In this document: positions 3,159 through 61,401 of the stretch, piece after piece
Layout: every line of letters begins with the position of its first letter
How positions within the stretch are numbered: position 1 is the first letter of the stretch
Origin: Eledone cirrhosa
Taxonomy: Eukaryota
Assembly: GCA_964016885.1 (NCBI GenBank)
Contig: OZ024744.1
Coordinates: forward strand, 131,440,001 to 131,504,000
Direction of reading: 5' to 3'
Length of the DNA: 64,000 nucleotides
Notes under the pieces: generated by a model
Told to the model about the DNA's origin: nothing
The model's input: the letters and a program-made list of their open reading frames with translations, nothing else
Databases searched by the model: none
Position numbers and translations under genes: made by a program

Positions 3159-3551
3159 AACCCCAACTTCACTCAACCCCACCTTAACTCAACCCCAACT
3201 TAACTTAACCCCAACTTCACTCAACCCCAACTTAACTCAACCCCAACTTAACTTAACCCCAACTTAACTTAACCCTAACTTAACTTAACCCCAACTTAAC
3301 TTAACTTCGACTTAACTTAACCCCAACTTAACTTAACCCCAACTTAACTTAACCCCAACTTAACTTAACCACAAATTAACTTAACCCCAACTTAAATTAA
3401 CCCCAACTTAAATTAACCCCAACTTAACTTAACCCCAACTTAACTTAACCCCAACTTAACTCACACCCAACTTAACTTACCCCCAACTTAACTTAACCCC
3501 AACTTGACTTAACCCCAAATTAACTTAACCCCAACTTAACTTAACCCCAAA
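3159..3551 (-). repeat. Inverted satellite island 1 (subfamily A, 393 bp)
   Basis: Switch to AACTTAACTTAACCCC monomers at GTGGTT|AACCCC and back at CCCCAAA|TTCGGGG. Confidence 0.96.
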
Positions 3552-6500
3552 TTCGGGGTTAAGTTAAGTTGGGGTTAAATTAAGTTAGGCTTAACTTAAG
3601 TTGGGGTTAAGTTAAATTGGGGGTAAGTTAAGTTCTGGGTAAGTTAAGTTGGGGTTAAGTTAAGTTAGGGTTAAGTTAAGTTGGGGTTGAGTTAAGTTGG
3701 GGTTAAGTTAAGTTGGGGTTATGTTAAGTTGGGGTCAAGTTAAGTTGGGGTTAAAATTAAGTTGGGGTTAAATCAAGTTGGGGTTAAGTTAAGTTGGGGT
3801 TAATTTAGTTGGGGTTAAGTTAAGTTGGGGCTAAGTTAAGTTGGGGTTAAGTTAAGTTGGGGTTAAGTTAAGTTGGGGTTAATTTAAATTGGGGTTAAGT
3901 TAACTTTGTGGTTAAGTTAAGTTGGGGTTAAGTTAAGTTGGGGTTAAGTTAAGTTGGGGTTGAGTTAAGTTGGGGTTGAGTGAAGTTGGTGTTAAGTTAA
4001 GTTGGGGTTAAGTTGGCGTTAAGTTAAATTGGGGTTGAATTAAGTTGGGGTTGAGTTAATTTAGGGTTAAGTTAAGTTGGGGTTAAGTTAAGTTGGGTTT
4101 AAGTTAAGTTGGGGTTAAATTAAGTTGGGGTTAAATTAAGTTGGGGTTAAGTTAAGTTGGGGGTAAGTTAAGTTGGTGTTAAGTTAAGTTGGGGTTAAGT
4201 TAAGTTGGGGTCAAGTTAAGTTGGGGTTAAAATTAAGTTTGGGTTAAGTCAAGTTGGGGTTAAGTTAAGTTTGAGTTAATTTAGTTGGGGTTAAGTTAAG
4301 TTGGGGCTAAGTTAAGTTGGGGCTAAGTTAAGTTGGGGCTAAGTTAAGTTGGGGTTAAGTTAAGTTGGGGTTAAGTTAAGGTGGGGTTAATTTAAGTTGG
4401 GGTCAACTTAAATTGGGGATAAGTTAAGTTGGGGTTACGTTAAGTTGGGGTTAAGTTAAGTTGGGGTTAAGTTAAGCTGGGGTTAAGTTAAGTTGGTGTT
4501 AAGTTAAGTTGGGGCTAAGTTAAGTTGGGGCTGAGTTAAGTTGGGGCTGAGTTAAGTTGGGGTTAATTTAAGTTGGGGTTGAGTTAAGTTGGGGTTAAGT
4601 TAAGTTGGGGTTAATTTAAGTTGGGGTTAAGTTAAGTTGGGGTTGAGTTAAGTTGGGGTTAAGTTAAGTTGGGGTTAAGTTAAGTTGGGGTTCAGTTAAG
4701 TTGGGGTTAAGTTAAGTTGGGGTTAAGATGGGGTTAAATTAAGTTGGGGTTAAGTTAAGTTGGGGTTAAGTTAAGTTAGGGTTAAGTTAAGTTGGGGTTA
4801 AGTTAAGTCGGGGTTAAGTTAAGTCGGGGTTAAGTTAAGTTAGGGTTAAGTTGGAGTTAAGTTAAGTTGGGGTTGAGTTAAGTTGGGGTTGAGTTAAATT
4901 GGGGTGGAGTTAAGTTGGGGTTGAGTTAAGTTGGTGTTGAGTTAAGTTGGGGTTAAGTTAAGTTGGGGTTAAGTTAAGTTGCAGTTAAGTTAAGTTGAGG
5001 TTAAGTTAAGTTGGGGTTAAGTTAAGTTGGGGTTAAGTTAAGTTGGGGCTAAGTTAAATGGGGCTAAGTTAAGTTGGGGCTAAGTTAAGTTGGGGTTCAG
5101 TTAAGTTGGGGTTAAGTTAAGTTTGGGTTAAGTTGGGGTTAAATTAAGTTGGGGTTAAGTTAAGTTGGGGTTTAGTTAAGTTGGGGTTAAGTTAAGTTGG
5201 GGTTAATTTAAGTTGGGGTTAAGTTAAGTTGGGGTTAAGTTGGCGTTAAGTTAAGTTGGGGTTGAATTAAGTTGGGGTTGAGTTAATTTAGGGTTAAGTT
5301 AAGTTGGGGTTAAGTTAAGTTGGGTTTAAGTTAAGTTGGGGTTAAATTAAGTTGGGGTTAAATTAAGTTCGGGTTAAGTTAAGTTGGGGGTAAGTTAAGT
5401 TGGTGTTAAGTTAAGTTGGGGTTAAGTTAAGTTGGGGTTAAGTTAAGTTGGGGTCAAGTTAAGTTGGGGTTAAAATTAAGTTGGGGTTAAGTCAAGTTGG
5501 GGTTAAGTTAAGTTTGAGTTAATTTAGTTGGGGTTAAGTTAAGTTGGGGCTAAGTTAAGTTGGGGCTAAGTTAAGTTGGGGCTAAGTTAAGTTGGGGTTA
5601 AGTTAAGTTGGGGTTAAGTTAAGGTGGGGTTAATTTAAGTTGGGGTCAACTTAAATTGGGGTTAAGTTAAGTTGGGGTTAAGTTAAGTTGGGGTTAAGTT
5701 AAGTTGGGGTTAAGTTAAGTTGGTGTTAAGTTAAGTTGGGCCTAAGTTAAGTTGGGGCTGAGTTAAGTTGGGGCTGAGTTAAGTTGGGGTTAATTTAAGT
5801 TGGGGTTGAGTTAAGTTGGGGTTAAGTTAAGTTGGGGTTAAGTTAAGTTGGGGGTAAGTTAAGTTCTGGGTAAGTTAAGTTGGGGTTAAGTTAAGTTGGG
5901 GTTAAGTTGGGGTTAAGTTAAGTTAGGGTTAAGTTAAGTTGGGGTTGAGTTAAGTTGGGGTTAAGTTAAGTTAGGGTTAAGTTAAGTTGGGGTCAAGTTA
6001 AGTTGGGGTTAAAATTAAGTTGGGGTTAAGTCAAGTTGGGGCTAAGTTAAGTTGGGGCTAAGTTAAGTTGGGGCTACGTTAAGTTGGGGTTAAGTTAAGT
6101 TGGGGTTAAGTTAAGTTGGGGTTAATTTAAATTGGGGTTAAGTTAACTTTGTGGTTAAGTTAAGTTGGGGTAAATTTAAGTTGGGGTTAAGTTAAGTTGG
6201 GGTTGAGTTAAGTTGGGGTTGAGTCAAGTTGGGGTTAAGTTAAGTTGGGGTTAAGTTAAGTTGGCGTTTATTTAAGTTGGGGTTGAGTTAAGTTGGGGTT
6301 GAGTTAATTCAGGGTTAAGTTAAGTAGGGGTTAAGTTAAGTTGTGTTTAAGTTAAGTTGGGGTTAAATTAAGTTGGGGTTAAGTTAAGTTGGGGGTAAGT
6401 TAAGTTGGGGTTAAGTTAAGTTGGGGTTAAGTTAAGTTGGGGTTAAGTTAAGTTGGGGTCAAGTTAAGTTGGGGTTAAAATTAAGTTGGGGTTAAGTCAA

Positions 6501-6789
6501 GTTGGGGTTAAGTTAAGTTGGGGTTAAGTTAAGGTGGGGTTAATTTAAGTTGGGGTCAACTTAAATTGGGGTTAAGTTAAGTTGGTTAGTTAAGTTGAGT
6601 TTAAGTTAAGTTGGGGTTAATTTAAGTTGGGGTTAAGTTAAGTTGGGGTTAAGTTAAGTTGGGGTTAAGTTAAGTTGGGGTTAAGTTAATTTGGGGTTCA
6701 GTTAAGTTGGGGTTAAGTCAAGTTGGGGTTAAGTTGGGGTTAAATTAAGTTGGGGTTAAGTTAATTCGTGGTTAAGTTAAGTTGGGGTT

Positions 6790-7214
6790 AACCCCAACTT
6801 CACTCAACCCCACCTTAACTCAACCCCAACTTAACTTAACCCCAACTTCACTCAACCCCAACTTAACTTAACCCCAACTTCACTCAACCCCAACTTAACT
6901 CAACCCCAACTTAACTTAACCCCAACTTAACTTAACGCTAACTTAACTTAACCCCGACTTCACTTAACTTCGACTTAACTTAACCCCAACTTAACTTAAC
7001 CCCAACTTAACTTAACCCCAACTTAACTTAACCACAAATTAACTTAACCCCAACTTAAATTAACCCCAACTTAAATTAACCCCAACTTAACTTAACCCCA
7101 ACTTAACTTAACCCCAACTTAACTCACACCCAACTTAACTTACCCCCAACTTAACTTAACCCCAACTTGACTTAACCCCAACTTAACTTAACCCCAACTT
7201 AACTTAACCCCAAA
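6790..7214 (-). repeat. Inverted satellite island 2 (subfamily A, 425 bp)
   Basis: GGGGTT|AACCCC left junction, AAA|TTCGGGG right junction, AACGCTAA marker. Confidence 0.96.
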
Positions 7215-8183
7215 TTCGGGGTTAAGTTAAGTTGGGGTTAAGTTAAGTTAGGCTTAACTTAAGTTGGGGTTAAGTTAAGTTGGGGGTAAGTTAAGTTCTG
7301 GGTAAGTTAATTTGGGGTTAAGTTAAGTTGGGGTTAAGTTGGGGTTAAGTTAAGTTAGGGTTAAGTTAAGTTGGGGTTGATTTAAGTTGGGGTTAAGTTA
7401 AGTTTGGGTTAAGTTGGGGTTAAATTAAGTTGGGGTTAAGTTAAGTTGGGGTTAAGTTAAGTTGGGGTTAAGTTAAGTTGGGGTTAAGTTAAGTTGGGGT
7501 TAATTTAAGTTGGGGTTAAGTTAAGTTGCGGGTAATTTAAGTTGGGGTTAAGTTAAGTTGGGGTTAAGTTAAGTTGGGGTTAAGTTAAGTTGGGGTTAAG
7601 GTAAGTTGGGGTTAAGTTAAGTTGGGACTAAGTTAAGTTGGGGCTGAGTTAAGTTGGGGTTAAGTTAAGTTGGGGTTAAGTTAAGTTGGGGTTAAGTTAA
7701 GTTGGGGTTAAGTTAAGTTGGGGTTGAGTTAAGTTGGGGTTAAGTTAAGTAGGGGTAAGTTAAGTTGGGGTTCAGTTAAGTTGGGGTTAAGTTAAGTTGG
7801 GGTTAAGATGGGGTTAAATTAAGTTGGGGTTAAGTTAAGTTGGGGTTAAGTTAAGTTGGGGTTAAGTTAAGTTGGGGTTAAGTTAAGTCGGGGTTAAGTT
7901 AAGTCGGGGTTAAGTTAAGTTAGGGTTAAGTTAAGTTGGAGTTAAGTTAAGTTGGGGTTGAGTTAAGTTGGGGTTGAGTTAAATTGGGGTTGAGTTAAGT
8001 TGGGGTTGAGTTAAGTTGGTGTTGAGTTAAGTTGGGGTTAAATTAAGTTGGGGTTAAGTTAAGTTGGGTTTAAGTTAAATTGGGGTTAAATTAAGTTGGG
8101 GTTAAATTAAGTTGGGGTTAAGTTAAGTTGGGGGTAAGTTAAGTTGGGGGCAAGTTAATTTGTGGATAAGTTAAGTTGTGGTT

Positions 8184-8576
8184 AACCCCAACTTCACTCA
8201 ACCCCACCTTAACTCAACCCCAACTTAACTTAACCCCAACTTCACTCAACCCCAACTTAACTCAACCCCAACTTAACTTAACCCCAACTTAACTTAACCC
8301 TAACTTAACTTAACCCCAACTTAACTTAACTTCGACTTAACTTAACCCCAACTTAACTTAACCCCAACTTAACTTAACCCCAACTTAACTTAACCACAAA
8401 TTAACTTAACCCCAACTTAAATTAACCCCAACTTAAATTAACCCCAACTTAACTTAACCCCAACTTAACTTAACCCCAACTTAACTCACACCCAACTTAA
8501 CTTACCCCCAACTTAACTTAACCCCAACTTGACTTAACCCCAAATTAACTTAACCCCAACTTAACTTAACCCCAAA
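8184..8576 (-). repeat. Inverted satellite island 3 (subfamily A, 393 bp)
   Basis: Same junctions, length and upstream TGTGGATAAG marker as island 1 (offset 5025). Confidence 0.96.
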
Positions 8577-9963
8577 TTCGGGGTTAAGTTAAGTTGGGGT
8601 TAAATTAAGTTAGGCTTAACTTAAGTTGGGGTTAAGTTAAATTGGGGGTAAGTTAAGTTCTGGGTAAGTTAAGTTGGGGTTAAGTTAAGTTAGGGTTAAG
8701 TTAAGTTGGGGTTGAGTTAAGTTGGGGTTAAGTTAAGTTGGGGTTATGTTAAGTTGGGGTCAAGTTAAGTTGGGGTTAAAATTAAGTTGGGGTTAAATCA
8801 AGTTGGGGTTAAGTTAAGTTGGGGTTAATTTAGTTGGGGTTAAGTTAAGTTGGGGCTAAGTTAAGTTGGGGTTAAGTTAAGTTGGGGTTAAGTTAAGTTG
8901 GGGTTAATTTAAGTTGGGGCTAAGTTAATTTGTGGTTAAGTTAAGTTGGGGTTAAGTTAAGTTGGGGTTAAGTTAAGTTGGGGTTGAGTTAAGTTGGGGT
9001 TGAGTTAATTTAGGGTTAAGTTAAGTTGGGGTTAAGTTAAGTTGGGTTTAAGTTAAGTTGGGGTTAAATTAAGTTGGGGTTAAATTAAGTTGGGGTTAAG
9101 TTAAGTTGGGGGTAAGTTAAGTTGGGGGCAAGTTAAGTTGGGGTTAAATTAAGTTGGGGTTAAGTTTAGTTGGTGTTAAGTTAAGTTGGGGTTTATTTAA
9201 GTTGGGGTTAATTAAGTTGGGGCTGAGTTAAGTTGGGGCTGAATTAAGTTGGGGTTAAGTTAAGTTGGGGTTGAGTTAAGTTGGGGTTAAGTTAAGTTGG
9301 GGTTAAGTTAAGTTGGGGTTAAGTTAAGTTGGGGTTTAGTTAAGTTGGGGTTCAGTTAAGTTGGGGTTAAGTTGGGGTTAAATTAATTTGGGGTTAAGTT
9401 AAGTTGGGGTTTAGTTTAGTTGGGGTTAAATTAAGTTGGGGTTAATTTAAGTTGGGGTTAAGTTAAGTTGCGGGTAATTTAAGTTGGGGTCAAGTTAAGT
9501 TGGGGTTAAGTTAAGTTGGGGTTAAGTTAAGTTGGGGGTAAGTTAAGTTGGGGGTAAGTTAAGTTGGGGGTAAGTTAAGTTGGGGTTAAGTTAAGTTGGG
9601 GTTAAGTTAAGTTAGGGTTAAGTTAAGTTGGGGTTGAGTTAAGTTGGGGTTAAGTTAAGTTGGGGTTATGTTAAGTTGGGGTTAAGTTAAGTTGGTTCGT
9701 TAAGTTGAGTTTAAGTTAAGTTGGGGTTAATTTAAGTTGGGGTTAAGTTAAGTTGGGGTTAAGTTAAGTTGGGGTTAAGTTAAGTTGGGGTTAAGTTAAG
9801 TTGGGGTTCAGTTAAGTTGGGGTTAAGTCAAGTTGGGGTTAAGTTGGGGTTAAATTAATTTGGGGTTAAGTTAAGTTGGGGTTAAGTTAAGTTGTGGTTA
9901 TGTTAAGTTGGGGTTAAGTTAAGTTGGGGTTAAGTTAATTTGTGGTTAAGTTAAGTTGTGGTT

Positions 9964-10404
9964 AACCCCAACTTCACTCAACCCCACCTTAACTCAACCC
10001 CAACTTAACTTAACCCCAACTTCACTCAACCCCAACTTAACTTAACCCCAACTTCACTCAACCCCAACTTAACTCAACCCCAACTTAACTTAACCCCAAC
10101 TTAACTTAACCCTAACTTAACTTAACCCCAACTTAACTTAACTTCGACTTAACTTAACCCCAACTTAACTTAACCCCAACTTAACTTAACCCCAACTTAA
10201 CTTAACCACAAATTAACTTAACCCCAACTTAAATTAACCCCAACTTAAATTAACCCCAACTTAACTTAACCCCAACTTAACTTAACCCCAACTTAACTTA
10301 ACCCCAACTTAACTCACACCCAACTTAACTTACCCCCAACTTAACTTAACCCCAACTTGACTTAACCCCAAATTAACTTAACCCCAACTTAACTTAACCC
10401 CAAA
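9964..10404 (-). repeat. Inverted satellite island 4 (subfamily A, 441 bp)
   Basis: C-rich monomers between the conserved junctions. Confidence 0.96.
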
Positions 10405-13400
10405 TTCGGGGTTAAGTTAAGTTGGGGTTAAATTAAGTTAGGCTTAACTTAAGTTGGGGTTAAGTTAAATTGGGGGTAAGTTAAGTTCTGGGTAAGTTAA
10501 GTTGGGGTTAAGTTAAGTTGGGGTTAAGTTGGGGTTAAGTTAAGTTAGGGTTAAGTTAAGTTGGGGTTGAGTTAAGTTGGGGTTAAGTTAAGTTGGGGTT
10601 AAGTTAAGTTGGGGTCAAGTTAAGTTGGGGTTAAAATTAAGTTGGGGTTAAATCAAGTTGGGGTTAAGTTAAGTTGGGGTTAATTTAGTTGGGGTTAAGT
10701 TAAGTTGGGGCTAAGTTAAGTTGGGGCTAAGTTAAGTTGGGACTAAGTTAAGTTGGGGTTAAGTTCAGTTGGGGTTAAGTTAAGTTGGGGTTAATTTAAA
10801 TTGGGGTTAAGTTAACTTTGTGGTTAAGTTAAGTTGGGGTTAAGTTAAGTTGGGGTTAAGTTAAGTTGGGGTTGAGTTATGTTGGGGTTGAGTGAAGTTG
10901 GGGTTAAGTTAAGTTGGGGTTAAGTTGGCGTTAATTTAAGTTGGGGTTGAATTAAGTTGGGGTTGAGTTAATTTAGGGTTAAGTTAAGTTGGGGTTAAGT
11001 TAAGTTGGGTTTAAGTTAAGTTGGGGTTAAATTAAGTTGGGGTTAAATTAAGTTGGGGTTAAGTTAAGTTGGGGGTAGGTTAAGTTGGTGTTAAGTTAAG
11101 TTGGGGTTAAGTTAAGTTGGGGTTAAGTTAAGTTGGGGTCAAGTTAAGTTGGGGTTAAAATTAAGTTTGGGTTAAGTCAAGTTGGGGTTAAGTTAAGTTT
11201 GAGTTAATTTAGTTGGGGTTAAGTTAAGTTGGGGCTAAGTTAAGTTGGGGCTAAGTTAAGTTGGGGCTAAGTTAAGTTGGGGTTAAGTTAAGTTGGGGTT
11301 AATTTAAGTTGGGGTCAACTTAAATTGGGGTTAAGTTAAGTTGGGGTTAAGTTAAGTTGGGGTTAAGTTAAGTTGGGGTTAAGTTAAGTTGGGGCTTAGT
11401 TAAGTTGGGGCTGAGTTAAGTTGGGGCTGAGTTAAGTTGGGGTTAAGTTAAGTTGGGGTTGAGTTAAGTTGGGGTTAAGTTAAGTTGGGGTTAAGTTAAG
11501 TTGGGGTTAATTTAAGTTGGGTTTAAGTTATGTTGGGGTTGAGTTAAGTTGGGGTTAAGTTAAGTTGGGGTTCAGTTAAGTTGGGGTTAAGTTAAGTTGG
11601 GGTTAAGATGGGGTTAAATTAAGTTGGGGTTAAGTTAAGTTGGGGTTAAGTTAAGTTGGGGTTAAGTTAAGTCGGGGTTAAGTTAAGTCGGGGTTAAGTT
11701 AAGTTAGGGTTAAGTTAAGTTGGAGTTAAGTTAAGTTGGGGTTGAGTTAAGTTGGGGTTGAGTTAAATTGGGGTGGAGTTAAGTTGGGGTTGAGTTAAGT
11801 TGGTGTTGAATTAAGTTGGGGTTAAGTTAAGTTGGGGTTAAGTTAAGTGCAGTTAAGTTAAGTTGAGGTTAAGTTATGTAGGGGTTAAGTTAAGTTGGGG
11901 TTAAGTTAAGTTGGGGCTAAGTTAAGTTGGGGCTAAGTTAAGTTGGGGCTAAGTTAAGTTGGGGTTCAGTTAAGTTGGGGTTAAGTTAAGTTTGGGTTAA
12001 GTTGGGGTTAAATTAAGTTGGGGTTAAGTTAAGTTGGGGTTTAGTTAAGTTGGGGTTAAGTTAAGTTGGGGTTAATTTAAGTTGGGGTTAAGTTAAGTTG
12101 GGGTTAAGTTGGCGTTAAGTTAAGTTGGGGTTGAATTAAGTTGGGGTTGAGTTAATTTAGGGTTAAGTTAAGTTGGGGTTAAGTTAAGTTGGGTTTAAGT
12201 TAAGTTGGGGTTAAATTAAGTTGGGGTTAAATTAAGTTCGGGTTAAGTTAAGTTGGGGGTAAGTTAAGTTGGTGTTAAGTTAAGTTGGGGTTAAGTTAAG
12301 TTGGGGTTAAGTTAAGTTGGGGTCAAGTTAAGTTGGGGTTAAAATTAAGTTGGGGTTAAGTCAAGTTGGGGTTAAGTTAAGTTTGAGTTAATTTAGTTGG
12401 GGTTAAGTTAAGTTGGGGCTAAGTTAAGTTGGGGCTAAGTTAAGTTGGGGCTAAGTTAAGTTGGGGTTAAGTTAAGTTGGGGTTAAGTTAAGGTGGGGTT
12501 AATTTAAGTTGGGGTCAACTTAAATTGGGGTTAAGTTAAGTTGGGGTTAAGTTAAGTTGGGGTTAAGTTAAGTTGGGGTTAAGTTAAGTTGGGGTTAAGT
12601 TAAGTTGGTGTTAAGTTAAGTTGGGGCTAAGTTAAGTTGGGGCTGAGTTAAGTTGGGGCTGAGTTAAGTTGGGGTTAATTTAAGTTGGGGTTGAGTTAAG
12701 TTGGGGTTAAGTTAAGTTGGGGTTAAGTTAAGTTGGGGTTGAGTTAAGTTGGGGTTAAGTTAAGTTGGGGTTAAGTTAAGTTGGGGTTAAGTTAAGTTGG
12801 GGTTAAGTTAAGTCGGGGTTAAGTTAAGTCGGGGTTAAGTTAAGTTAGGGTTAAGTTAAGTTGGAGTTAAGTTAAGTTGGGGTTGAGTTAAGTTGGGGTT
12901 GAGTTAAATTGGGGTGGAGTTAAGTTGGGGTTGAGTTAAGTTGGTGTTGAATTAAGTTGGGGTTAAGTTAAGTTGGGGTTAAGTTAAGTGCAGTTAAGTT
13001 AAGTTGAGGTTAAGTTATGTAGGGGTTAAGTTAAGTTGGGGTTAAGTTAAGTTGGGGCTAAGTTAAGTTGGGGCTAAGTTAAGTTGGGGCTAAGTTAAGT
13101 TGGGGTTCAGTTAAGTTGGGGTTAAGTTAAGTTTGGGTTAAGTTGGGGTTAAATTAAGTTGGGGTTAAGTTAAGTTGGGGTTTAGTTAAGTTGGGGTTAA
13201 GTTAAGTTGGGGTTAATTTAAGTTGGGGTTAAGTTAAGTTGGGGTTAAGTTGGCGTTAAGTTAATTTGGGGTTGAATTAAGTTGGGGTTGAGTTAATTTA
13301 GGGTTAAGTTAAGTTGGGGTTAAGTTAAGTTGGGTTTAAGTTAAGTTGGGGTTAAATTAAGTTGGGGTTAAATTAAGTTCGGGTTAAGTTAAGTTGGGGG

Positions 13401-14690: not shown

Positions 14691-15083
14691 AACCCCAACT
14701 TCACTCAACCCCACCTTAACTCAACCCCAACTTAACTTAACCCCAACTTCACTCAACCCCAACTTAACTCAACCCCAACTTAACTTAACCCCAACTTAAC
14801 TTAACCCTAACTTAACTTAACCCCAACTTAACTTAACTTCGACTTAACTTAACCCCAACTTAACTTAACCCCAACTTAACTTAACCCCAACTTAACTTAA
14901 CCACAAATTAACTTAACCCCAACTTAAATTAACCCCAACTTAAATTAACCCCAACTTAACTTAACCCCAACTTAACTTAACCCCAACTTAACTCACACCC
15001 AACTTAACTTACCCCCAACTTAACTTAACCCCAACTTGACTTAACCCCAAATTAACTTAACCCCAACTTAACTTAACCCCAAA
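14691..15083 (-). repeat. Inverted satellite island 5 (subfamily A, 393 bp)
   Basis: Copy of island 1 at offset 11532. Confidence 0.96.
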
Positions 15084-46429: not shown

Positions 46430-46855
46430 AACCCCAACTTCACTCAACCCCACCTTAACTCAACCCCAACTTAACTTAACCCCAACTTCACTCAACCCCA
46501 ACTTAACTTAACCCCAACTTCACTCAAACCCCAACTTAACTCAACCCCAACTTAACTTAACCCCAACTTAACTTAACGCTAACTTAACTTAACCCCGACT
46601 TCACTTAACTTCGACTTAACTTAACCCCAACTTAACTTAACCCCAACTTAACTTAACCCCAACTTAACTTAACCACAAATTAACTTAACCCCAACTTAAA
46701 TTAACCCCAACTTAAATTAACCCCAACTTAACTTAACCCCAACTTAACTTAACCCCAACTTAACTCACACCCAACTTAACTTACCCCCAACTTAACTTAA
46801 CCCCAACTTGACTTAACCCCAACTTAACTTAACCCCAACTTAACTTAACCCCAAA
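46430..46855 (-). repeat. Inverted satellite island 14 (subfamily A, 426 bp)
   Basis: Island-2 type (AACGCTAA, upstream TTCGTGG) with a 1-bp insertion CTCAAACCCC. Confidence 0.95.
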
Positions 46856-50700: not shown

Positions 50701-51930
50701 TGGGGTTAAGTTAAGTTGGGGCTAAGTTAAGTTGGGGCTAAGTTAAGTTGGGGCTAAGTTAAGTTGGGGTTCAGTTAAGTTGGGGTTAAGTTAAGTTTGG
50801 GTTAAGTTGGGGTTAAATTAAGTTGGGGTTAAGTTAAGTTGGGGTTTAGTTAAGTTGGGGTTAATTTAAGTTGGGGTTAATTTAAGTTGCGGTTAAGTTA
50901 AGTTGGGGTTAAGTTAAGTGGTGGTTATGTTAAGTTGGGGTTAAGTTAAGTTGGGGTTAATTTAAATTGGGGTTAAGTTAACTTTGTGGTTAAGTTAAGT
51001 TGGGGTTAAGTTAAGTTGGGGTTAAGTTAAGTTGGGGTTGCGTTAAGTTGGGGTTGAGTGAAGTTGGGGTTAAGTTAAGTTGGGGTTAATTTAAGTTGGG
51101 ATTAAGTTAAGTCGGGCTTAAGTTAAGTTGGGGTTGAGTTAAGTTGGGGTTAGTTTAAGTTGGGGCTAAGTTAATTTGTGGTTAAGTTAAGTTGGGGTTA
51201 AGTTAAGTTGGGGTTAAGTTAAGTTGGGGTTGAGTTAAGTTGGGGTTGAGTTAATTTAGGGTTAAGTTAAGTTGGGGTTAAGTTAAGTTGGGTTTAAGTT
51301 AAGTTGTGGGTAAGTTAAGTTGGGGGCAAGTTAAGTTGGGGTTAAGTTAAGTTGGGGTTAAATTAAGTTGGGGTTAAGTTTAGTTGGTGTTAAGTTAAGT
51401 TGGGGTTTATTTAAGTTGGGGTTAATTAAGTTGGGGCTGAGTTAAGTTGGGGCTGAATTAAGTTGGGGTTAAGTTAAGTTGGGGTTGAGTTAAGTTGGGG
51501 TTAAGTTAAGTTGGGGTTAAGTTGAGTTGGGGTTAAGTTAAGTTGGGGTTTAGTTAAGTTGGGGTTCAGTTAAGTTGGGGTTAAGTTGGGGTTAAATTAA
51601 TTTGGGGTTAAGTTAAGTTGGGGTTTAGTTTAGTTGGGGTTAAATTAAGTTGGAGTTAATTTAAGTTGGGGTTAAGTTAAGTTGCGGGTAATTTAAGTTG
51701 GGGTTAAGTTAAGTTGGGGTTAAGTTAAGTTGGGGGTAAGTTAAGTTGGGGGTAAGTTAAGTTGGGGGTAAGTTAAGTTGGGGTTAAGTTAAGTTGGGGT
51801 TAAGTTAAGTTAGGGTTAAGTTAAGTTGGGGTTGAGTTAAGTTGGGGTTAAGTTAAGTTGGGGTTATGTTAAGTTGGGGTTAAGTTAAGTTGGTTCGTTA
51901 AGTTGAGTTTAAGTTAAGTTGGGGTTAATT
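47750..51930 (+). repeat. Direct duplication, period about 2413-2429 bp
   Basis: GTGCAG marker at 48241/50654 and GGTTCG at 49463/51892. The two offsets differ by one monomer. Confidence 0.82.
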
Positions 51931-52145
51931 TAAGTTAGGGTTAAGTTAAGTTGGGGTTAAGTTAAGTTGGGGTTAAGTTAAGTTGGGGTTAAGTTAATTT
52001 GGGGTTCAGTTAAGTTGGGGTTAAGTTGGGGTTAAATTAATTTGGGGTTAAGTTAAGTTGGGGTTAAGTTAAGTTGGGGTTATGTTAAGTTGGGGTTAAG
52101 TTAAGTTGGGGTTAAGTTAATTTGTGGTTAAGTTAAGTTGTGGTT

Positions 52146-52532
52146 AACCCCAACTTCACTCAACCCCACCTTAACTCAACCCCAACTTAACTTAACCCCA
52201 ACTTAACTTAACCCCAACTTAACTTAACCACAAATTAATTTAACCCCAACTTAACCCCAACTTGACTTAACCCCAACTTAACTGAACCCCAACTTAACTT
52301 AACTCCAACTTAACTTAAACCCAACTTAATTAAACCCAACTTAACTTATCCCCAACTTAACTTATCCCCAACTTAACTTAACCCCAACTTAACTTAACCC
52401 CAACTTAACTTAACCCCAACTTAACTTAACCCCAACTTAACTCACACCCAACTTAACTTACCCCCAACTTAACTTAACCCCAACTTGACTTAACCCCAAA
52501 TTAACTTAACCCCAACTTAACTTAACCCCAAA
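52146..52532 (-). repeat. Inverted satellite island 15 (subfamily A ends, atypical interior, 387 bp)
   Basis: Conserved junctions, but the interior at about 52231-52375 differs from all other islands. Confidence 0.95.
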
Positions 52533-54315
52533 TTCGGGGTTAAGTTAAGTTGGGGTTAAATTAAGTTAGGCTTAACTTAAGTTGGGGTTAAGTTAAATTG
52601 GGGGTAAGTTAAGTTCTGGGTAAGTTAAGTTGGGGTTAAGTTAAGTTGGGGTTAAGTTGGGGTTAAGTTAAGTTAGGGTTAAGTTAAGTTGGGGTTGAGT
52701 TAAGTTGGGGTTAAGTTAAGTTGGGGTTAAGTTAAGTTGGGGTCAAGTTAAGTTGGGGTTAAAATTAAGTTGGGGTTAAATCAAGTTGGGGTTAAGTTAA
52801 GTTGGGGTTAATTTAGTTAGGGTTAAGTTAAGTTGGGGCTAAGTTAAGTTGGGGCTAAGTTAAGTTGGGGCTAAGTTAAGTTGGGGTTAAGTTAAGTTGG
52901 GGTTAATTTAAATTGGGGTTAAGTTAACTTTGTGGTTAAGTTAAGTTGGGGTTAAGTTAAGTTGGGGTTAAGTTAAGTTGGGGTTGAGTTAAGTTGGGGT
53001 TGAGTGAAGTTGGGGTTAAGTTAAGTTGGGGTTAAGTTAAGTTGGGGTTAAGTTAAGTTGGGGTCAAGTTAAGTTGGGGTTAAGTTAAGTTGGGGTTAAG
53101 ATAAGTTGGTTAGTTAAGTTGAGTTTAATTTAAGTTGGGGTTAAGTTAAGTTGGGGTTAAGTTAAGTTGGGGTTAAGTTAATTTGGGGTTCAGTTAAGTT
53201 GGGGTTAAGTCAAGTTGGGGTTAAGTTGGGGTTAAATTAATCTGGGATTAAGTTATTGTTGGGGTTAAGTTAAGTTGGGGTTAAGTTAAGTTGGGGTTAA
53301 GTTAAGTTGGGGTTAAGTTAATTTGGGGTTGAGTTAATTTGGGGTTAAGTTAAGTTGGGGTTAAGTTAAGTTGGGTTTAAGTTAAGTTGGGGTTAAATTA
53401 AGTTGGGGTTAAATTAAGTTGGGGTTAAGTTAAGTTGGGGGTAAGTTAAGTTGGGGGCAAGTTAAGTTGGGGTTAAGTTAAGTTGGGGTTAAATTAAGTT
53501 GGGGTTACGTTAAGTTGGTGTTAAGTTAAGTTGGGGTTAATTTAAGTTGGGGTTAATGAAGTTGGGGTTAAGTTAAGTTGGGGTTAAGTTAAGTTGGGGT
53601 TAATTTAAGTTGGGATTGAGTTAAGTTGGGGTTAAGTTAAGTTGGGGTTATATTAAGTTGAGGTTAAGTTAAGTTGGGGTTAAGTTAAGTTGGGGTTCTG
53701 TTAAGTTGCGGTTAAGTTAAGTTGGGGTTAAGTTAAGTTGGGGTTAAGTTAAGTTGGGGTTAAGTTAAGTTGGGGTCAAGTTAAGTTGGGGTTAAGTTAA
53801 GTTGGGATTAAGTTAAGTTGGGGTTAAGTTAAGTTGGGGTTAAGTTAAGTAGGGGTTAAGTTAAGTTGGGGTTAAGTTAAGTTGAGGTTAAGTTAAGTTG
53901 GGGTTAAATTAAGTTGGGGTTAATTTAAGTTGGGGTTAATTTAAGCTGGGGTTAAGTTAAGTTGGGGATAATTTAAGTTGGGGATAAGTTAAGTTGGGGT
54001 TAAGTTAAGTTGGGTTTAAGTTAAGTTGGGGTTAAGTTAAGTTGGGGTTAAGTTAAGTTGGGGTTAATTTAAGTTGGGGTTAAGTTACGTTGGAGTTAAG
54101 TTAAGTTGGGGTTAAGTTAAGTTGGGGTTCAGTTAAGTTGGGGTTAAATCAAGTTGGGGTTAAGTTGGGGTTAAATTAATTGGGGTTAAGTTAAGTTGGG
54201 GTTAAGTTAAGTTGGGGTTAAGTTAAGTTGGGGTTAAGTTAAGTTGGGGTTAAGTTAAGTTGGAGTTAAGTTAAGTTTGGGTTGAGTTAAGTTGGGGTTG
54301 AGTTAAATTGGGGTT

Positions 54316-54804
54316 AACTCCAACTTAAGTTAACCCCAACTTAACTTAACCCCAACTTCACTCAACCCCAACTTAACTTAACCCCAACTTCACTCAACCC
54401 CAACTTAACTCAACCCCAACTTAACTTAACCCCAACTTCACTCAACCCCAACTTATCTTAACCCCAACTTCACTCAACCCCAACTAAACTCAACCCCAAC
54501 TTAACTTAACCCCAACTTAACTTAACCCTAACTTAACTTAACCCCGACTTAACTTAACCTCGACTTAACTTAACCCCAACTTAATTTAACCCCAACTTAA
54601 CTTAACCCCAACTTAACTTAACCACAAATTAACTTAACCCCAACTTCAATTAACCCCAACTTAACTTAACCCCAACTTAACTTAACCCCAACTTAACTTA
54701 ACCCCAACTTAACTCACACCCAACTTACCTTACCCCCAACTTAACTTAACCCCAACTTGACTTAACCCCAACTTAACTTAACCCCAACTTAACTTAACCC
54801 CAAA
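54316..54804 (-). repeat. Inverted satellite island 16 (subfamily B, 489 bp)
   Basis: B-type junction and markers. Confidence 0.96.
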
Positions 54805-56459
54805 TTCGGGGTTAAGTTATGTTGGGGTTAAGTTAAGTTAGGCCTAACTTAAGTTGGAGTTAAGTTAAGTTGGGGGTAAGTTAAGTTGGGGGTAAGTTAA
54901 GTTGGGGTTAAGTTAAGTTGGGGTTAAGTTGGGGTTAAGTTAAGTTAGGGTTAAGTTAAGTTGGGGTTGATTTAAGTTGGGGTTAAGTTAAGTGGTGGTT
55001 ATGTTAAGTTGGGGTGAAGTTAACTGGGGTTAATTTAAATTGGTGTTAAGTTAACTTTGTGGTTAAGTTAAGTTGGGGTTAAGTTAAGTTGGGGTTAAGT
55101 TAAGTTGGGGTTGAGTTAAGTTGGGGTTGAGTGAAGTTGGGGTTAAGTTAAGTTGGGGTTAATTTAAGTTGGGGTTAAGTTAAATCGGAGTTAAGTTAAG
55201 TTGGGGTTGAGTTAAGTTGGCGTTAATTTAAGTTGGGGCTAAGTTAAGTTGGGGTTAAGTTAAGTTGAGGTTAAGTTAAGTTGGGGTTGAGTTAAGTTGG
55301 GGTTGAGTTAATTTGGGGTTAAGTTAAGTTGGGGTTAAGTTAAGTTGGGTTTAAGTTAAGTTGGGGTTAAATTAAGTTGGGGTTAAATTAAGTTGGGGTT
55401 AAGTTAAGTAGGGGGTAAGATAAGTTGGGGGCAAGTTAAGTTGGGGTTAAGTTAAGTTGGGGTTAAATTAAGTTGGGGTTAAGTTAAGTTGGGGTTATAT
55501 TAAGTTGGGGTTAAGTTAAGTTGGGGTTAATTTAAGTTGGGGTTCAGTTAAGTTGCGGTTAAGTTAAGTTGGGGTTAAGTTAAGTTGGGGTTAAGTTAAG
55601 TTGGGGTCAAGTTAAGTTGGGGTTATGTTAAGTTGGGGTTTAGTTAAGTTGGTGTTCATTTAAGTTGGGGTTAAGTTAAGTTTGGGTTAAGTTGGGGTTA
55701 AATTAAGTTGGGGTTAAGTTAAGTTGGGGTTAAGTTAAGTTGGGGTTAAGTTAAGTTGGGGTTAATTTAAGTTGGGGTTAAGTTAAGTTGCGGGTAATTT
55801 AAGTTGGGGTTAAGTTAAGTTGGGGTTAAGTTAAGTTGGGGTTAAGTTAAGTTGGGGTCAAGTTAAGTTGGGGTTAAAATTAAGTTGGGGTTAAGTCAAG
55901 TTGGGGTTAAGTTAAGTTGGGGTTAATTTAGTTGGGGTTAAGTTAAGTTGGGGCTAAGTTAAGTTGGGGCTAAGTTAAGTTGGGGCTAAGTTAAGTTGGG
56001 GTTAAGTTAAGTTGGGGTTAAGTTAAGGTGGGGTTAATTTAAGTTGGGGTCAACTTAAATTGGGGTTAAGTTAAGTTGGGTTTAAGTTAAGTTGGGGTTA
56101 AGTTAAGTGGGGGTTAAGTTAAGTTGGGGTTAATTTAAGTTGGTGTTAAGTTAAGTTGGGGTTAAGTTAAGTTGGGGTTAAGTTAAGTTGGTTAGTTAAG
56201 TTGAGTTTAAGTTAAGTTGGGGTTAATTTAAGTTGGGGTTAAGTTAAGTTGGGGTTAAGTTAAGTTGGGGTTAAGTTAAGTTGGGGTTAAGTTAATTTGG
56301 GGTTCAGTTAAGTTGGGGTTAAGTCAAGTTGGGGTTAAGTTGGGGTTAAATTAATTTGGGGTTAAGTTAAGTTGGGGTTAAGTTAAGTTGGGGTTAAGTT
56401 AAGTTGGGGTTAAGTTAAGTTGGGGTTAAGTTAATTTGTGGTTAAGTTAAGTTGGGGTT

Positions 56460-56884
56460 AACCCCACCTTCACTCAACCCCACCTTAATTCAACCCCAAC
56501 TTAACTTAACCCCAACTTCACTCAACCCCAACTTAACTTAACCCCAACTTCACTCAACCCCAACTTAACTCAACCCCAACTTAACTTAACCCCAACTTAA
56601 CTTAACGCTAACTTAACTGAACCCCGACTTAACTTAACTTCGACTTAACTTAACCCCAACTTAAATTAACCCCAACTTAACTTAACCCCAACTTAACTTA
56701 ACCACAAATTAACTTAACCCCAACTTAAATTAACCCCAACTTAAATTAACCCCAACTTAACTTAACCCCAACTTAACTTAACCCCAACTTAACTCACACC
56801 CAACTTAACTTACCCCCAACTTAACTTAACCCCAACTTGACTTAACCCCAACTTAACTTAACCCCAACTTAACTTAACCCCAAA
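56460..56884 (-). repeat. Inverted satellite island 17 (subfamily A, 425 bp)
   Basis: Conserved junctions and AACGCTAA marker, plus private variants. Confidence 0.96.
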
Positions 56885-57499
56885 TTCGGGGTTAAGTTAA
56901 GTTGGGGTTAAGTTAAGTTAGGCTTAACTTAAGTTGGGGTTAAGTTAAGTTGGGGGTAAGTTAATTTCTGGGTAAGTTAAGTTGGGGTTAAGTTAAGTTG
57001 GGGTTAAGTTGGGGTTAAGTTAAGTTAGGGTTAAGTTAAGTTGGGGTTGAGTTAAGTTGGGGTTAAGTTAAGTTGGGGTTAAGTTAAGTTGGGGTAAAGT
57101 TAAGTTGGGTTTAAGTTAAGTTGGGGTTAAATTAAGTTGGGGTTAAATTAAGTTGGGGTTAAGTTAAGTTGGGGTTAAGTTAAGTTGGGGTTAAATTAAG
57201 TTGGGGTTACGTTAAGTTGGTGTTAAGTTAAGTTGGGGTTAATTTAAGTTGGGGTTAATTAAGTTAGGGTTCAGTTAAGTTGGGGTTAAGTTAAGTTGGG
57301 GTTAATTTAAGTTGGGGTTGAGTTAAGTTAGGGTTAAGTTAATTTGGGGTTATATTAAGTTGGGGTTAAGTTAAGGTGGGGTTAAGTTAAGTTGGGGTTC
57401 AGTTAAGTTGCGGTTAAGTTAAGTTGGGGTTAAGTTAAGTTGGGGTTAAGTTAAGTTGGGGTTAAGTTAAGTTGGGGTCAAGTTAAGTTGGGGTTAAGT

Positions 57500-59830
57500 T
57501 AAGTTGGGGTTAAGTTAAGTTGGTTAGTTAAGTTGAGTTTAAGTTAAGTTGGGGTTAATTTAAGTTGGGGTTAAGTTAAGTTGGTGTTAAGTTAAGTTGG
57601 GGCTAAGTTAAGTTGGGGCTGAGTTAAGTTGGGGTTAAGTTAAGTTGGGGTTGAGTTAAGTTGGGGTTAAGTTAAGTTGGGGTTAAGTTAAGTTGGGGTT
57701 TAGTTAAGTTGGGGTTCAGTTAAGTTGGGGTTAAGTTAAGTTGGGGTTAAGATGGGGTTAAATTAAGTTGGGGTTAAGTTAAGTTGGGGCTAAGTTAAGT
57801 TGGGGCTGAGTTAAGTTGGGGTTAAGTTAAGTTGGGGTTCAGTTAAGTCGGGGTTAAGTTAAGTCGGGGTTAAGTTAAGTTAGGGTTAAGTTAAGTTGGA
57901 GTTAAGTTAAGTTCTGGGTAAGTTAAGTTGGGGTTAAGTTAAGTTGGGGTTAAGATGGGGTTAAATTAAGTTGGGGTTAAGTTAAGTTGGGGTTAAGTTA
58001 AGTTGGGGTTAAGTTAAGTTGGGGTTAAGTTAAGTCGGGGTTAAGTTAAGTCGGGGTTAAGTTAAGTTGGCGTTAAGTTAAGTTGGGGTTAAGTTAAGTT
58101 AGGCTTAACTTAAGTTGGGCTTAAGTTAAGTTGGGGGTAAGTTAAGTTCTGGGTAAGTTAATTTGGGGTTAAGTTAAGTTGGGGTTAAGTTGGGGTTAAG
58201 TTAAGTTAGGGTTAAGTTAAGTTGGGGTTGAGTTAAGTTGGGGTTAAGTTAAGTTGGGGTTAAGTTAAGTTGGGGTCAAGTTAAGTTGGGGTTAAAATTA
58301 AGTTGGGGTTAAGTCAAGTTGGGGTTAAGTTAAGTTGGGGTTAATTTAGTTGGGGTTAAGTTAAGTTGGGGCTAAGATAAGTTGGGGCTAAGTTAAGTTG
58401 GGGCTAAGTTAAGTTGGGGTTAAGTTAAGTTAGGGTTAAGTTAAGTTGGGGTTAATTTAAATTGGGGTTAAGTTAACTTTGTGGTTAAGTTAAGTTGGGG
58501 TTAAGTTAAGTTGGGGTTAAGTTAAGTTGGGGTTGAGTTAAGTTGGGGTTGAGTGAAGTTGGGGTTAAGTTACGTTGGGGTTAAGTTAAGATGGCGTTAA
58601 GTTAAGTTGGGGTTGAGTTAAGTTGGGGTTGAGTTAATTTAGGGTTAAGTTAAGTTGGGGTAAAGTTAAGTTGGGTTTAAGTTAAGTTGGGGTTAAATCA
58701 AGTTGGGGTTAAGTTAAGTTGGTGTTAATTTAGTTGGGGTTAAGTTAAGTTGGGGCTAAGTTAAGTTGGGGTTAAGTTAAGTTGGGGTTAAGTTAAGTTG
58801 GTTAGTTAAGTTGAGTTTAAGTTAAGTTGGGGTTAATTTAAGTTGGGGTTAAGTTAAGTTGGTGTTAAGTTAAGTTGGGGCTAAGTTAAGTTGGGGCTGA
58901 GTTAAGTTGGGGTTAAGTTAAGTTGGGGTTGAGTTAAGTTGGGGTTAAGTTAAGTTGGGGTTAAGTTAAGTTGGGGTTTAGTTAAGTTGGGGTTCAGTTA
59001 AGTTGGGGTTAAGTTAAGTTGGGGTTAAGATGGGGTTAAATTAAGTTGGGGTTAAGTTAAGTTGGGGCTGAGTTAAGTTGGGGTTAAGTTAAGTTGGGGT
59101 TCAGTTAAGTCGGGGTTAAGTTAAGTCGGGGTTAAGTTAAGTTAGGGTTAAGTTAAGTTGGAGTTAAGTTAAGTTCTGGGTAAGTTAAGTTGGGGTTAAG
59201 TTAAGTTGGGGTTAAGATGGGGTTAAATTAAGTTGGGGTTAAGTTAAGTTGGGGTTAAGTTAAGTTGGGGTTAAGTTAAGTTGGGGTTAAGTTAAGTCGG
59301 GGTTAAGTTAAGTCGGGGTTAAGTTAAGTTGGGGTTAAGTTAAGTTGGGGTTAAGTTAAGTTAGGCTTAACTTAAGTTGGGCTTAAGTTAAGTTGGGGGT
59401 AAGTTAAGTTCTGGGTAAGTTAATTTGGGGTTAAGTTAAGTTGGGGTTAAGTTGGGGTTAAGTTAAGTTAGGGTTAAGTTAAGTTGGGGTTGAGTTAAGT
59501 TGGGGTTAAGTTAAGTTGGGGTTAAGTTAAGTTGGGGTCAAGTTAAGTTGGGGTTAAAATTAAGTTGGGGTTAAGTCAAGTTGGGGTTAAGTTAAGTTGG
59601 GGTTAATTTAGTTGGGGTTAAGTTAAGTTGGGGCTAAGATAAGTTGGGGCTAAGTTAAGTTGGGGCTAAGTTAAGTTGGGGTTAAGTTAAGTTAGGGTTA
59701 AGTTAAGTTGGGGTTAATTTAAATTGGGGTTAAGTTAACTTTGTGGTTAAGTTAAGTTGGGGTTAAGTTAAGTTGGGGTTAAGTTAAGTTGGGGTTGAGT
59801 TAAGTTGGGGTTGAGTGAAGTTGGGGTTAA
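57500..59830 (+). repeat. Tandem duplication, period about 1262-1278 bp
   Basis: GGTTAGTTAAGTTGAGTTT at 57522/58800 and AGGCTTAACTTAAGTTGGGCTT at 58101/59363. Confidence 0.85.
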
Positions 59831-60977
59831 GTTAAGTTGGGGTTAATTTAAGTTGGGGTTAAGTTAAGTCGGGCTTAAGTTACGTTGGGGTTGAGTTAAG
59901 TTGGGGTTAATTTAAGTTGGGGCTAAGTTAATTTGTGGTTAAGTTAAGTTGGGGTTAAGTTAAGTTGGGGTTAAGTTAAGTTGGGGTTGAGTTAAGTTGG
60001 GGTTGAGTTAATTTAGGGTTAAGTTAAGTTGGGGTTAAGTTAAGTTGGGTTTAAGTTAAGTTGGGGTTAAATTAAGTTGGGGTTAAATTAAGTTGGGGTT
60101 AAGTTAAGTTGGGGGTAAGTTAAGTTGGGGGCAAGTTAAGTTGGGGTTAAGTTAAGTTGGGGTTAAATTAAGTTGGGGTTAAGTTTAGTTGGTGTTAAGT
60201 TAAGTTGGGGTTTATTTAAGTTGGGGTTAATTAAGTTGGGGCTGAGTTAAGTTGGGGCTGAATTAAGTTGGGGTTAAGTTAAGTTGGGGTTGAGTTAAGT
60301 TGGGGTTAAGTTAAGTTGGGGTTAAGTTAAGTTGGGGTTAAGTTAAGTTGGGGTTTAGTTAAGTTGGGGTTCAGTTAAGTTGGGGTTAAGTTGGGGTTAA
60401 ATTAATTTGGGGTTAAGTTAAGTTGGGGTTTAGTTTAGTTGGGGTTAAATTAAGTTGGGGTTAATTTAAGTTGGTGTTAAGTTAAGTTGCGGGTAATTTA
60501 AGTTGGGGTCAAGTTAAGTTGGGGTTAAGTTAAGTTGGGGTTAAGTTAAGTTGGGGTTAAGTTAAGTTGGGGGTAAGTTAAGTTGGGGGTAAGTTAAGTT
60601 GGGGGTAAGTTAAGTTGGGGTTAAGTTATGTTGGGGTTAAGTTAAGTTAGGGTTAAGTTAAGTTGGGGTTGAGTTAAGTTGGGGTTAAGTTAAGTTGGGG
60701 TTATGTTAAGTTGGGGTTAAGTTAAGTTGGTTCGTTAAGTTGAGTTTAAGTTAAGTTGGGGTTAATTTAAGTTGGGGTTAAGTTAAGTTGGGGTTAAGTT
60801 GGGGTTAAGTTAAGTTGGGGTTCAGTTAAGTTGGGGTTAAGTCAAGTTGGGGTTAAGTTGGGGTTAAATTAATTTGGGGTTAAGTTAAGTTGGGGTTAAG
60901 TTAAGTTGGGGTTATGTTAAGTTGGGGTTAAGTTAAGTTGGGGTTAAGTTAATTCGTGGTTAAGTTAAGTTGTGGTT

Positions 60978-61401
60978 AACCCCAACTTCACTCAACCCCA
61001 CCTTAACTCAACCCCAACTTAACTTAACCCCAACTTCACTCAACCCCAACTTAACTTAACCCCAACTTCACTCAACCCCAACTTAACTCAACCCCAACTT
61101 AACTTAACCCCAACTTAACTTAACCCTAACTTAACTTAACCCGACTTAACTTAACTTCGACTTAACTTAACCCCAACTTAACTTAACCCCAACTTAACTT
61201 AACCCCAACTTAACTTAACCACAAATTAACTTAACCCCAACTTAAATTAACCCCAACTTAAATTAACCCCAACTTAACTTAACCCCAACTTAACTTAACC
61301 CCAACTTAACTCACACCCAACTTAACTTACCCCCAACTTAACTTAACCCCAACATGACTTAACACCAAATTAACTTAACCCCAACTTAACTTAACCCCAA
61401 A
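60978..61401 (-). repeat. Inverted satellite island 18 (subfamily A, 424 bp)
   Basis: Conserved junctions, a 1-bp deletion (AACCCGAC) and private variants (AACATGAC, AACACC). Confidence 0.96.

What the first reader, a model, noticed from the sequence alone, without database searches (positions are those of the whole stretch)
3159..61401. 18 copies of one inverted island with conserved palindromic junctions embedded in the satellite
Seen: the array flips to the C-rich strand 18 times. It always enters at GGTT|AAC, using the monomer's own TTAA palindrome with no inserted bases, and always exits at CCCC(A/G)AA|TTCGGGG. Most islands share ordered internal variants (CTTCACTCAA, TCGAC, ACCACAAAT, CTCACACCC, CTTGACTT). 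Inference: this is one ancestral inversion, possibly a fold-back or template switch, that has been amplified and retained, not 18 independent events. Established: long spacer-less inverted repeats are generally unstable, so persistence at this density (about one per 3.5 kb) is notable.
Basis: partly seen in the sequence, partly recalled or inferred. Interest (0 to 1): 0.75.

Follow-up and report, generated by a model that had tools for sequence, protein, structure and literature searches.

The report
One old flip, copied 800 times
The 18 back-to-front patches in this 16-base repeat array are real and belong to a family of roughly 800 on one chromosome; they likely descend from a single old copying slip, were likely carried along passively as the array duplicated, and now and then likely let larger blocks flip, with no sign so far that they have a job.

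Summary
Real, but a known kind of structure. The window lies in an 8-Mb array of a 16-bp satellite. All 18 inverted islands (201-489 bp) are there, share both junctions and their flanks, and 15 of 18 keep the same phase. The genome holds about 750 exit and about 840 entry junctions, and read-derived contigs of one sample span both. One old inversion or inverted insertion was most likely copied by ordinary tandem duplication (an exact 7.9-kb duplicate carries two islands). The 'unstable long palindrome' premise is weak: arms are only 80-94% alike, like any two array segments; the exit has a mismatch; 3.3 Mb of the array lack islands. Junction cores vary slightly less than their surroundings (P = 0.053), which does not show selection. 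Islands do seem to feed rare later rearrangements: island 15 carries a mirrored piece of upstream flank, and a 2.4-kb and a ~560-kb reversed block end inside islands. Closest: conserved inversion sites in Tribolium satellites; human HSat3 strand switches. The scan already reported this family from four other windows of the same array.

The parts
1..64000 (+). 16-bp satellite array, consensus monomer GGGGTTAAGTTAAGTT, G-rich strand on +; part of an array spanning about 126.97-135.3 Mb of contig C28
3159..3551 (-). Inverted island 1 (393 bp), entry GTGGTT|AACCCC, exit CCCCAAA|TTCGGGG
   Evidence: both junctions in read-derived contigs
6790..7214 (-). Inverted island 2 (425 bp)
8184..8576 (-). 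Inverted island 3 (393 bp, identical to island 1)
9964..10404 (-). Inverted island 4 (441 bp)
14691..15083 (-). Inverted island 5 (393 bp; copy of island 1 inside the 7.9-kb exact duplicate)
18322..18746 (-). Inverted island 6 (425 bp; copy of island 2 inside the 7.9-kb exact duplicate)
20189..20613 (-). Inverted island 7 (425 bp)
21716..21916 (-). Inverted island 8 (201 bp, internally shortened by whole monomers)
31852..32244 (-). Inverted island 9 (393 bp)
38027..38515 (-). Inverted island 10 (489 bp, AACTCC-entry subfamily)
39723..40211 (-). Inverted island 11 (489 bp, AACTCC-entry subfamily)
42940..43268 (-). Inverted island 12 (329 bp, AACTCC-entry subfamily; only island with a perfectly symmetric exit core, GAATTC)
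45107..45435 (-). Inverted island 13 (329 bp)
46430..46855 (-). Inverted island 14 (426 bp, 1-bp insertion)
52146..52532 (-). Inverted island 15 (387 bp; chimeric interior)
52216..52369 (-). 154-bp tract in island 15 carrying forward-array monomer variants, including the four-monomer signature of the upstream flank, near mirror register about the entry junction; likely a conversion tract
54316..54804 (-). Inverted island 16 (489 bp, AACTCC-entry subfamily)
56460..56884 (-). Inverted island 17 (425 bp)
60978..61401 (-). Inverted island 18 (424 bp, 1-bp deletion)
117..8057 (+). First copy of an exact 7,941-bp duplicate holding islands 1 and 2
11649..19589 (+). Second copy of the exact 7,941-bp duplicate (shift 11,532 bp) holding islands 5 and 6

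Best explanation
The 18 islands are copies of one inverted patch that likely arose once by two template switches and was then likely multiplied passively, together with its flanks, as the satellite array duplicated itself. Shown: same two junctions, same phase, shared private variants and flanks, and exact duplicates that carry islands. Inferred: the first switch used the monomer's 4-bp TTAA microhomology, the second a 1-bp overlap onto an AAGTC monomer variant (ancestral exit CCCCAAAGTCGG; the window's AAATTC form is a later local substitution); the net register shift is +2 bp, so it was not a clean cut-and-flip at TTAA. Inferred: unequal exchange or break-induced copying changed island length by whole monomers, spread some subfamilies and dropped others. 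Inferred: because islands are the array's common opposite-strand homology, rare later recombination between an island and the forward array converted part of island 15 and ended a 2.4-kb and a ~560-kb reversed block. The islands persist because diverged arms make weak cruciform substrates and a satellite likely pays little for local deletions.
For: All 18 share both junctions; 15 of 18 lengths are 9 modulo 16 (lengths). Island-only monomers: GGGTGTGAG type 136 in islands vs 1 in forward sequence. Downstream flank signature within 75 bp of the exit in 18 of 18 window islands and 208 of 252 islands in 864 kb, vs 0.125% of random forward windows. Exact 7,941-bp duplicate with two islands; other islands have exact duplicates of 179-3,368 bp at 1.7-138 kb. 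Genome-wide 153+2 AAATTC exits (152+2 inside the 864 kb fetched), 583+15 AAAGTC-type exits, 839 entry matches; the same island and flank layout from 124.6 to 135.0 Mb. No listed junction from 124.69 to 130.25 Mb although the array starts at 126.97 Mb; none in 131.82-131.90 Mb; density falls from 47 to 0 per 100 kb. Flank signature without island at 7 or more places. Arm identity 80-94% fits 5.4% and 6.4% divergence from consensus; in yeast, 86% identity lowers Alu inverted-repeat rearrangement about 58-fold (PMC10164571, passages). Secondary events.
Against: Junction cores (8 bp each side) show 17 changes in 32 columns vs 140 in 160 elsewhere, P = 0.053, a hint of constraint, though cores are also shielded from monomer-to-monomer conversion. 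Junction hairpins are predicted stable as single strands (-12.8 to -35.9 kcal/mol vs -4.6 for forward DNA), and PMC10164571 (passages) shows diverged repeats are unstable in single-stranded DNA. A perfect 22-bp entry palindrome is the commonest entry (161 of 254 segments have the GGGGTTAACCCC core). No forward-strand donor of the whole island was found, so the founding mechanism is inferred from junctions only. The left end of the ~560-kb block is an N stretch, and its right end was not checked against reads.
Confidence: 0.82

Rival explanations
1. The islands drive their own spread: the junction hairpin stalls forks or breaks, and repair by break-induced copying or unequal exchange amplifies island-bearing units more than island-free ones.
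For: About 750-840 copies from one event; stable predicted hairpins; secondary rearrangements end in islands; densest domain has 47 islands per 100 kb.
Against: Island-free domains of similar size also expanded (126.97-130.25 Mb); any inversion by homology in a one-way array must end in an island, so that coincidence is expected; only 2 secondary lineages among 254 reverse segments.
Confidence: 0.09
2. The junction dyads are kept by selection as chromatin or centromere signals, as proposed for Tribolium macro-dyads.
For: Cores vary somewhat less than surroundings, P = 0.053; both junction types persist in all domains sampled; precedent proposed in PMC13081366 and PMC12581902 (sections and passages).
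Against: Spacing is irregular (351-12,699 bp, CV 0.68); megabases lack islands; cores differ among subfamilies (9 exit forms in 254 segments); listed junctions are on one contig only; no junction cover in the two other organisms' contigs that hold the monomer (weak, contigs do not show absence).
Confidence: 0.06
3. The islands are sequencing or assembly artefacts (fold-back reads).
For: Strand switches at short palindromes are a typical library artefact (own knowledge). The runs that confirm the junctions are one sample that may be the assembly's source.
Against: Islands are not mirror images of adjacent DNA; they have 122 distinct types among 252 with nested private variants; both junctions lie in read-derived contigs at depths of 250-1,460, AAATTC and three-difference forms at about 1:3 as in the assembly (155:598).
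Confidence: 0.02
4. The 18 islands are independent inversions at a recurring hotspot in the monomer.
For: TTAA switches can recur: an unrelated palindrome at 128.585 Mb has three TTAA-centred switch points.
Against: Identical non-reciprocal exit, phase, private variants and flanks; the independent event has different junctions and mirrors its neighbours.
Confidence: 0.01

Closest known systems
Conserved inversion sites INV_1a/INV_1b/INV_2 and macro-dyad symmetries of Tribolium madens TmSat1/TmSat2 and T. freemani TfSat01/TfSat03 (PMC13081366: abstract, section 7 part 1, section 10; PMC12581902: passages)
   Same: Satellite arrays switch strand at a few highly conserved junction types present in large numbers; authors allow that conservation may reflect the spreading mechanism.
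   Different: There the inverted subarrays are kilobases long and tend to balance, on all chromosomes, at putative centromeres; here a 0.1-0.5-kb patch makes up about 10% of the island-bearing domain, the monomer is 16 bp, and listed junctions lie on one contig.
Strand switches in human satellites: HSat3B5 on chr9 and beta satellite with over 200 inversion breakpoints; 1.7-Mb polymorphic inversion in chr1 alpha satellite (10.1101/2021.07.12.452052, passages)
   Same: Short-monomer satellite arrays with hundreds of inversion breakpoints, plus large inverted blocks inside one array.
   Different: The passages seen do not trace the breakpoints to one ancestral out-and-back patch; here two junctions account for nearly all switches.
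Satellites whose unit contains inverted subunits (T. brevicornis 1061-bp unit with ~470-bp inverted segments; T. madens TmSat2), as described in PMC13081366 and PMC12581902
   Same: An old inversion is fixed inside the amplified unit.
   Different: Here the unit is not fixed: island spacing runs from 0.35 to 12.7 kb and flanks occur without islands.
Microhomology-mediated template-switch inversions (FoSTeS/MMBIR, ODIRA; own knowledge, PMC10766183 and PMC4689423 seen as search listings only)
   Same: Two junctions with 4-bp and 1-bp microhomology and no inserted bases.
   Different: The island no longer mirrors its flanks, so a fold-back or inverted-triplication origin cannot be read from it; the separate 128.585-Mb palindrome fits that pattern better.

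Membership tests
Amplified ancestral inversion inside a satellite | Identical junctions and phase in all copies | tested here: met
   18 of 18 share both junctions, 15 of 18 lengths 9 modulo 16, the other three explained by short indels
Amplified ancestral inversion inside a satellite | Private variants and flanks inherited with the inversion | tested here: met
Amplified ancestral inversion inside a satellite | Copies lie inside larger direct duplications | tested here: met
   exact 7,941-bp duplicate with two islands
Tribolium-type macro-dyad satellite | Conserved inversion sites in many copies | tested here: met
   about 750 exits, about 840 entries
Tribolium-type macro-dyad satellite | Multi-kilobase opposed subarrays tending to symmetry | tested here: not met
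   252 of 254 reverse segments are under 600 bp; reverse strand is 9.7% of 864 kb
Tribolium-type macro-dyad satellite | (Peri)centromeric location on all chromosomes | tested here: inconclusive
   first listed junction matches are all on C28, 1.2-12 Mb from its end; later contigs not listed; centromere position unknown
Long perfect palindrome (unstable spacer-less inverted repeat) | Near-identical arms of 100 bp or more around a short spacer | tested here: not met
   perfect stems 3-11 bp (entry) and 12-32 bp beyond a mismatched loop (exit); 80-94% identity over 64 bp
Fold-back inversion | Inverted segment is the mirror copy of adjacent DNA | tested here: not met
   island variants differ from both flanks; may have been erased by age
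Reciprocal cut-and-flip inversion at TTAA | Exit is the reciprocal TTAA junction, register conserved | tested here: not met
   register shifted by 2 bp; 0 matches to a TTAA-centred exit of that phase in the genome
Selected functional element | Junctions more conserved than co-duplicated flanks | tested here: inconclusive
   P = 0.053; CpG test has no power
Selected functional element | Protein binding, CENP-A or cruciform formation in vivo | not testable with these tools
   no chromatin data

The most novel reading that the evidence does not exclude
One old inverted patch became a self-promoting U-turn element in a satellite: its hairpin junctions trigger breaks whose repair amplifies island-bearing units, converts sequence between the arms (island 15) and plants new inverted blocks from 2 kb to over 500 kb, so a single mutation now steers the strand architecture of an 8-Mb array.
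Probability: 0.12. Interest if true: 0.62.

Novelty: new member of a known kind. Interest (0 to 1): 0.3.

Why it matters
It shows that hundreds of strand switches in a satellite can be copies of one event, which warns against reading conserved inversion sites as functional. The roughly 800 dated copies are a natural record of array turnover, and the array has island-rich and island-free domains side by side, so drive versus passive spread is testable by long reads of several individuals. As it stands it is an ordinary outcome of satellite evolution.

Tried and rejected
Fold-back origin: arms compared in register and by monomer variants; no mirror match. Donor search: longest exact forward matches of window islands point to the re-inverted island in the nested block, not to a donor; the GGGGGT-GGGTGT pair occurs forward in other domains but not the island's order (the script stopped with an index error after printing most output). 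Idea that the exit was once TTAA-centred and lost 4 bases: 0 matches to the undeleted form, untestable. Idea that perfect exits are purged: 0 genome matches to the C-to-T symmetrised exit, but a control CpG inside islands kept its C in 142 of 143, so no power; three perfect GAATTC exits exist. In-place inversion for the ~560-kb block: its 32-mers are shared more with 130.5-130.9 and 134.0-135.0 Mb (0.45-0.65) than with its neighbours (0.15-0.42), so not supported. Single donor of the nested 2.4-kb block: exact anchors scatter over several places. Run X6 (reduced representation) was uninformative: 0.9 of laid reads run on into unlike sequence. X1 and X2 show no cover of the entry junction and X1 no piece across the exit; contigs do not show absence. 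Literature search for the monomer in six phases found 0 papers; supplements were not searched, so a published description under another name is not excluded. No tree of islands was built: gap placement in a 16-bp repeat is ambiguous, so shared junctions, variants and flanks were counted instead.
Full report
Setting. The whole window is a tandem array of a 16-bp monomer, GGGGTTAAGTTAAGTT, 4,032 copies, 87% matches. It is G000:C28:131,440,001-131,504,000 of a 3.0-Gb genome. Sampling shows the array from 126.967 Mb to beyond 135.305 Mb of the 136.5-Mb contig, with a separate reversed block at 124.60-124.69 Mb. I fetched 800 kb around the window and 60 further stretches. A full-text search for the monomer in six phases found 0 papers.

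Observation. There are exactly 18 C-rich islands, 201-489 bp, at the stated coordinates. All enter at GGTT|AAC and all leave at CCCC(A/G)AA|TTCGGGG. Read-derived contigs of run X3 span the entry junction (one 105-bp record, 4 other letters, depth 251), and contigs of X3, X4 and X5 span the exit (exact 54-55-bp records, depth 320-480; a three-difference form at 950-1,465). These runs are one sample that may be the assembly's source, so they exclude an assembly error more than a sample peculiarity.

One origin. Fifteen of 18 lengths are 9 modulo 16; the other three differ by short indels. An orientation model found 254 reverse segments in 864 kb, 252 of them under 600 bp. Island-only monomers abound (136 vs 1, 67 vs 1 in islands vs forward DNA). 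A downstream signature follows the exit in 18 of 18 window islands and 208 of 252 overall, vs 0.125% of random forward windows; upstream flanks are shared too. An exact 7,941-bp duplicate holds islands 1-2 and 5-6. Genome-wide there are 153+2 AAATTC exits, 152+2 of them in the fetched 864 kb, 583+15 AAAGTC-type exits and 839 forward and 776 reverse matches to the near-palindromic entry pattern. Islands from 124.6 to 135.0 Mb share order and flanks. AAAGTC is the widespread form and AAGTC is an ordinary forward monomer end, so I infer it is ancestral.

Founding event (inferred). The entry has 4 bp of TTAA microhomology; the ancestral exit has a 1-bp overlap; neither has inserted bases. The register shifts by 2 bp, and the TTAA-centred exit has 0 matches, so this was not a reciprocal flip at TTAA. 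Two microhomology-mediated template switches fit best (own knowledge of FoSTeS/MMBIR). The island is not a mirror of its flanks and no whole donor was found, so fold-back is not shown.

Why persistence is not surprising. Perfect stems are 3-11 bp at the entry and 12-32 bp beyond a mismatched loop at the exit; arms are 80-94% alike over 64 bp, as expected from 5.4% and 6.4% divergence from consensus; random forward pairs give a median perfect run of 8 bp, 90th percentile 24. In yeast, Alu inverted repeats at 94% and 86% identity rearrange about 15- and 58-fold less than perfect ones, but stay unstable in single-stranded DNA (PMC10164571, passages). No junction is listed between 124.69 and 130.25 Mb, density falls from 47 to 0 per 100 kb across the fetched stretch, and spacing is irregular. 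The downstream flank stands without an island at 7 or more places. Against this reading: on a spanning tree of 92 junction haplotypes (82 of 91 edges used, 9 with more than 6 differences dropped; the 2 long segments left out) cores have 17 changes in 32 columns vs 140 in 160, P = 0.053, and 80-nt junction hairpins fold at -12.8 to -35.9 kcal/mol vs -4.6 for forward DNA. Cores have no in-register monomer template for conversion, which alone could lower their change rate (inference).

Later events that use the islands. Island 15, in 3 identical copies among 252, has a 154-bp interior of forward-type monomers, including the four-monomer signature that sits 7-10 monomers upstream of its entry, now 6-9 monomers inside it: likely conversion between the hairpin arms. 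A 2.4-kb block at 131.324-131.326 Mb is re-inverted with both ends inside islands. A ~560-kb reversed block ends on the right in a reversed exit plus two island monomers; its left end is an N stretch, and its 32-mers match distant domains better than its neighbours. Neither single-copy junction was checked against reads. Since islands are the common opposite-strand homology in the array, such ends are expected there and do not show that islands cause breaks.

Comparison. Tribolium madens and T. freemani satellites have thousands of conserved inversion sites (PMC13081366: abstract, section 7 part 1, section 10; PMC12581902: passages), but with kilobase-scale balanced subarrays; that test is not met here. 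Human HSat3B5 and beta satellite hold over 200 inversion breakpoints (10.1101/2021.07.12.452052, passages). Cichlid centromeres with inverted blocks (PMC13652916, abstract only) are a different design. Supplements were not read. The scan's earlier, unreviewed notes on four other windows of this array reach the same reading; they are not independent support. One prompted the 32-mer test of the large block and one pointed to PMC12581902.

Verdict. Observation confirmed; interpretation partly supported. A new member of a known kind, most likely a passenger (0.82), interest 0.30. The bolder reading, a self-promoting U-turn element, stays open at about 0.12.

Noticed in passing
G000:C28:131,323,657-131,326,270 (L009): Nested reversed block of about 2.4 kb: it starts inside an AACTCC-type island, runs through reversed forward array, a whole re-inverted island and two reversed exit junctions, and rejoins the forward array inside another island with no new junction sequence.
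   Followed up: partly
G000:C28:132,795,108-133,355,377 (L105-L115, L125, L126): Reversed block of about 560 kb; right end is a reversed exit junction plus two island monomers merging into forward array; left end abuts an N stretch; sequence resembles the 130.5-130.9 and 134-135 Mb domains more than its neighbours.
   Followed up: partly
L131:4502-7293 (G000:C28:128,584,502-128,587,293): Independent near-perfect palindrome, 1,393-nt arms, 98% complementary, 6-nt spacer, centred in an AT-rich repeat, with three TTAA-centred strand switches; mirrors its neighbours, so either a fresh fold-back event or an artefact.
   Followed up: partly
L101:1340-6200; L121-L124: AT-rich repeat (GC about 18%, CCTTATATAATCAA and TTCGAAAA motifs) interrupts the array; a 0.7-kb piece replaces the entry half of an island and was itself amplified at least four times at 132.758-132.785 Mb.
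   Followed up: no
L141 (G000:C2:209,194,712-209,197,741): The same 16-bp monomer occurs on contig C2 inside a ~520-bp composite tandem unit beside a related AT-rich repeat; the unit's boundary matches a loose end in run X1 of another organism, so this may be the older home of the monomer.
   Followed up: partly
G000:C28:124,599,483-124,691,519 (L132-L136): Separate 92-kb reversed satellite block with reversed islands of the AAAGTCGGAG subfamily, 2.3 Mb from the main array, ending at an N stretch.
   Followed up: partly
window:42940-43275: Exit core became a perfect palindrome (GAATTC) in one lineage of three copies, after an earlier change had already restored one pair; two symmetry-restoring changes among about five seen in the 6-bp loop, too few to call template-directed correction.
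   Followed up: partly
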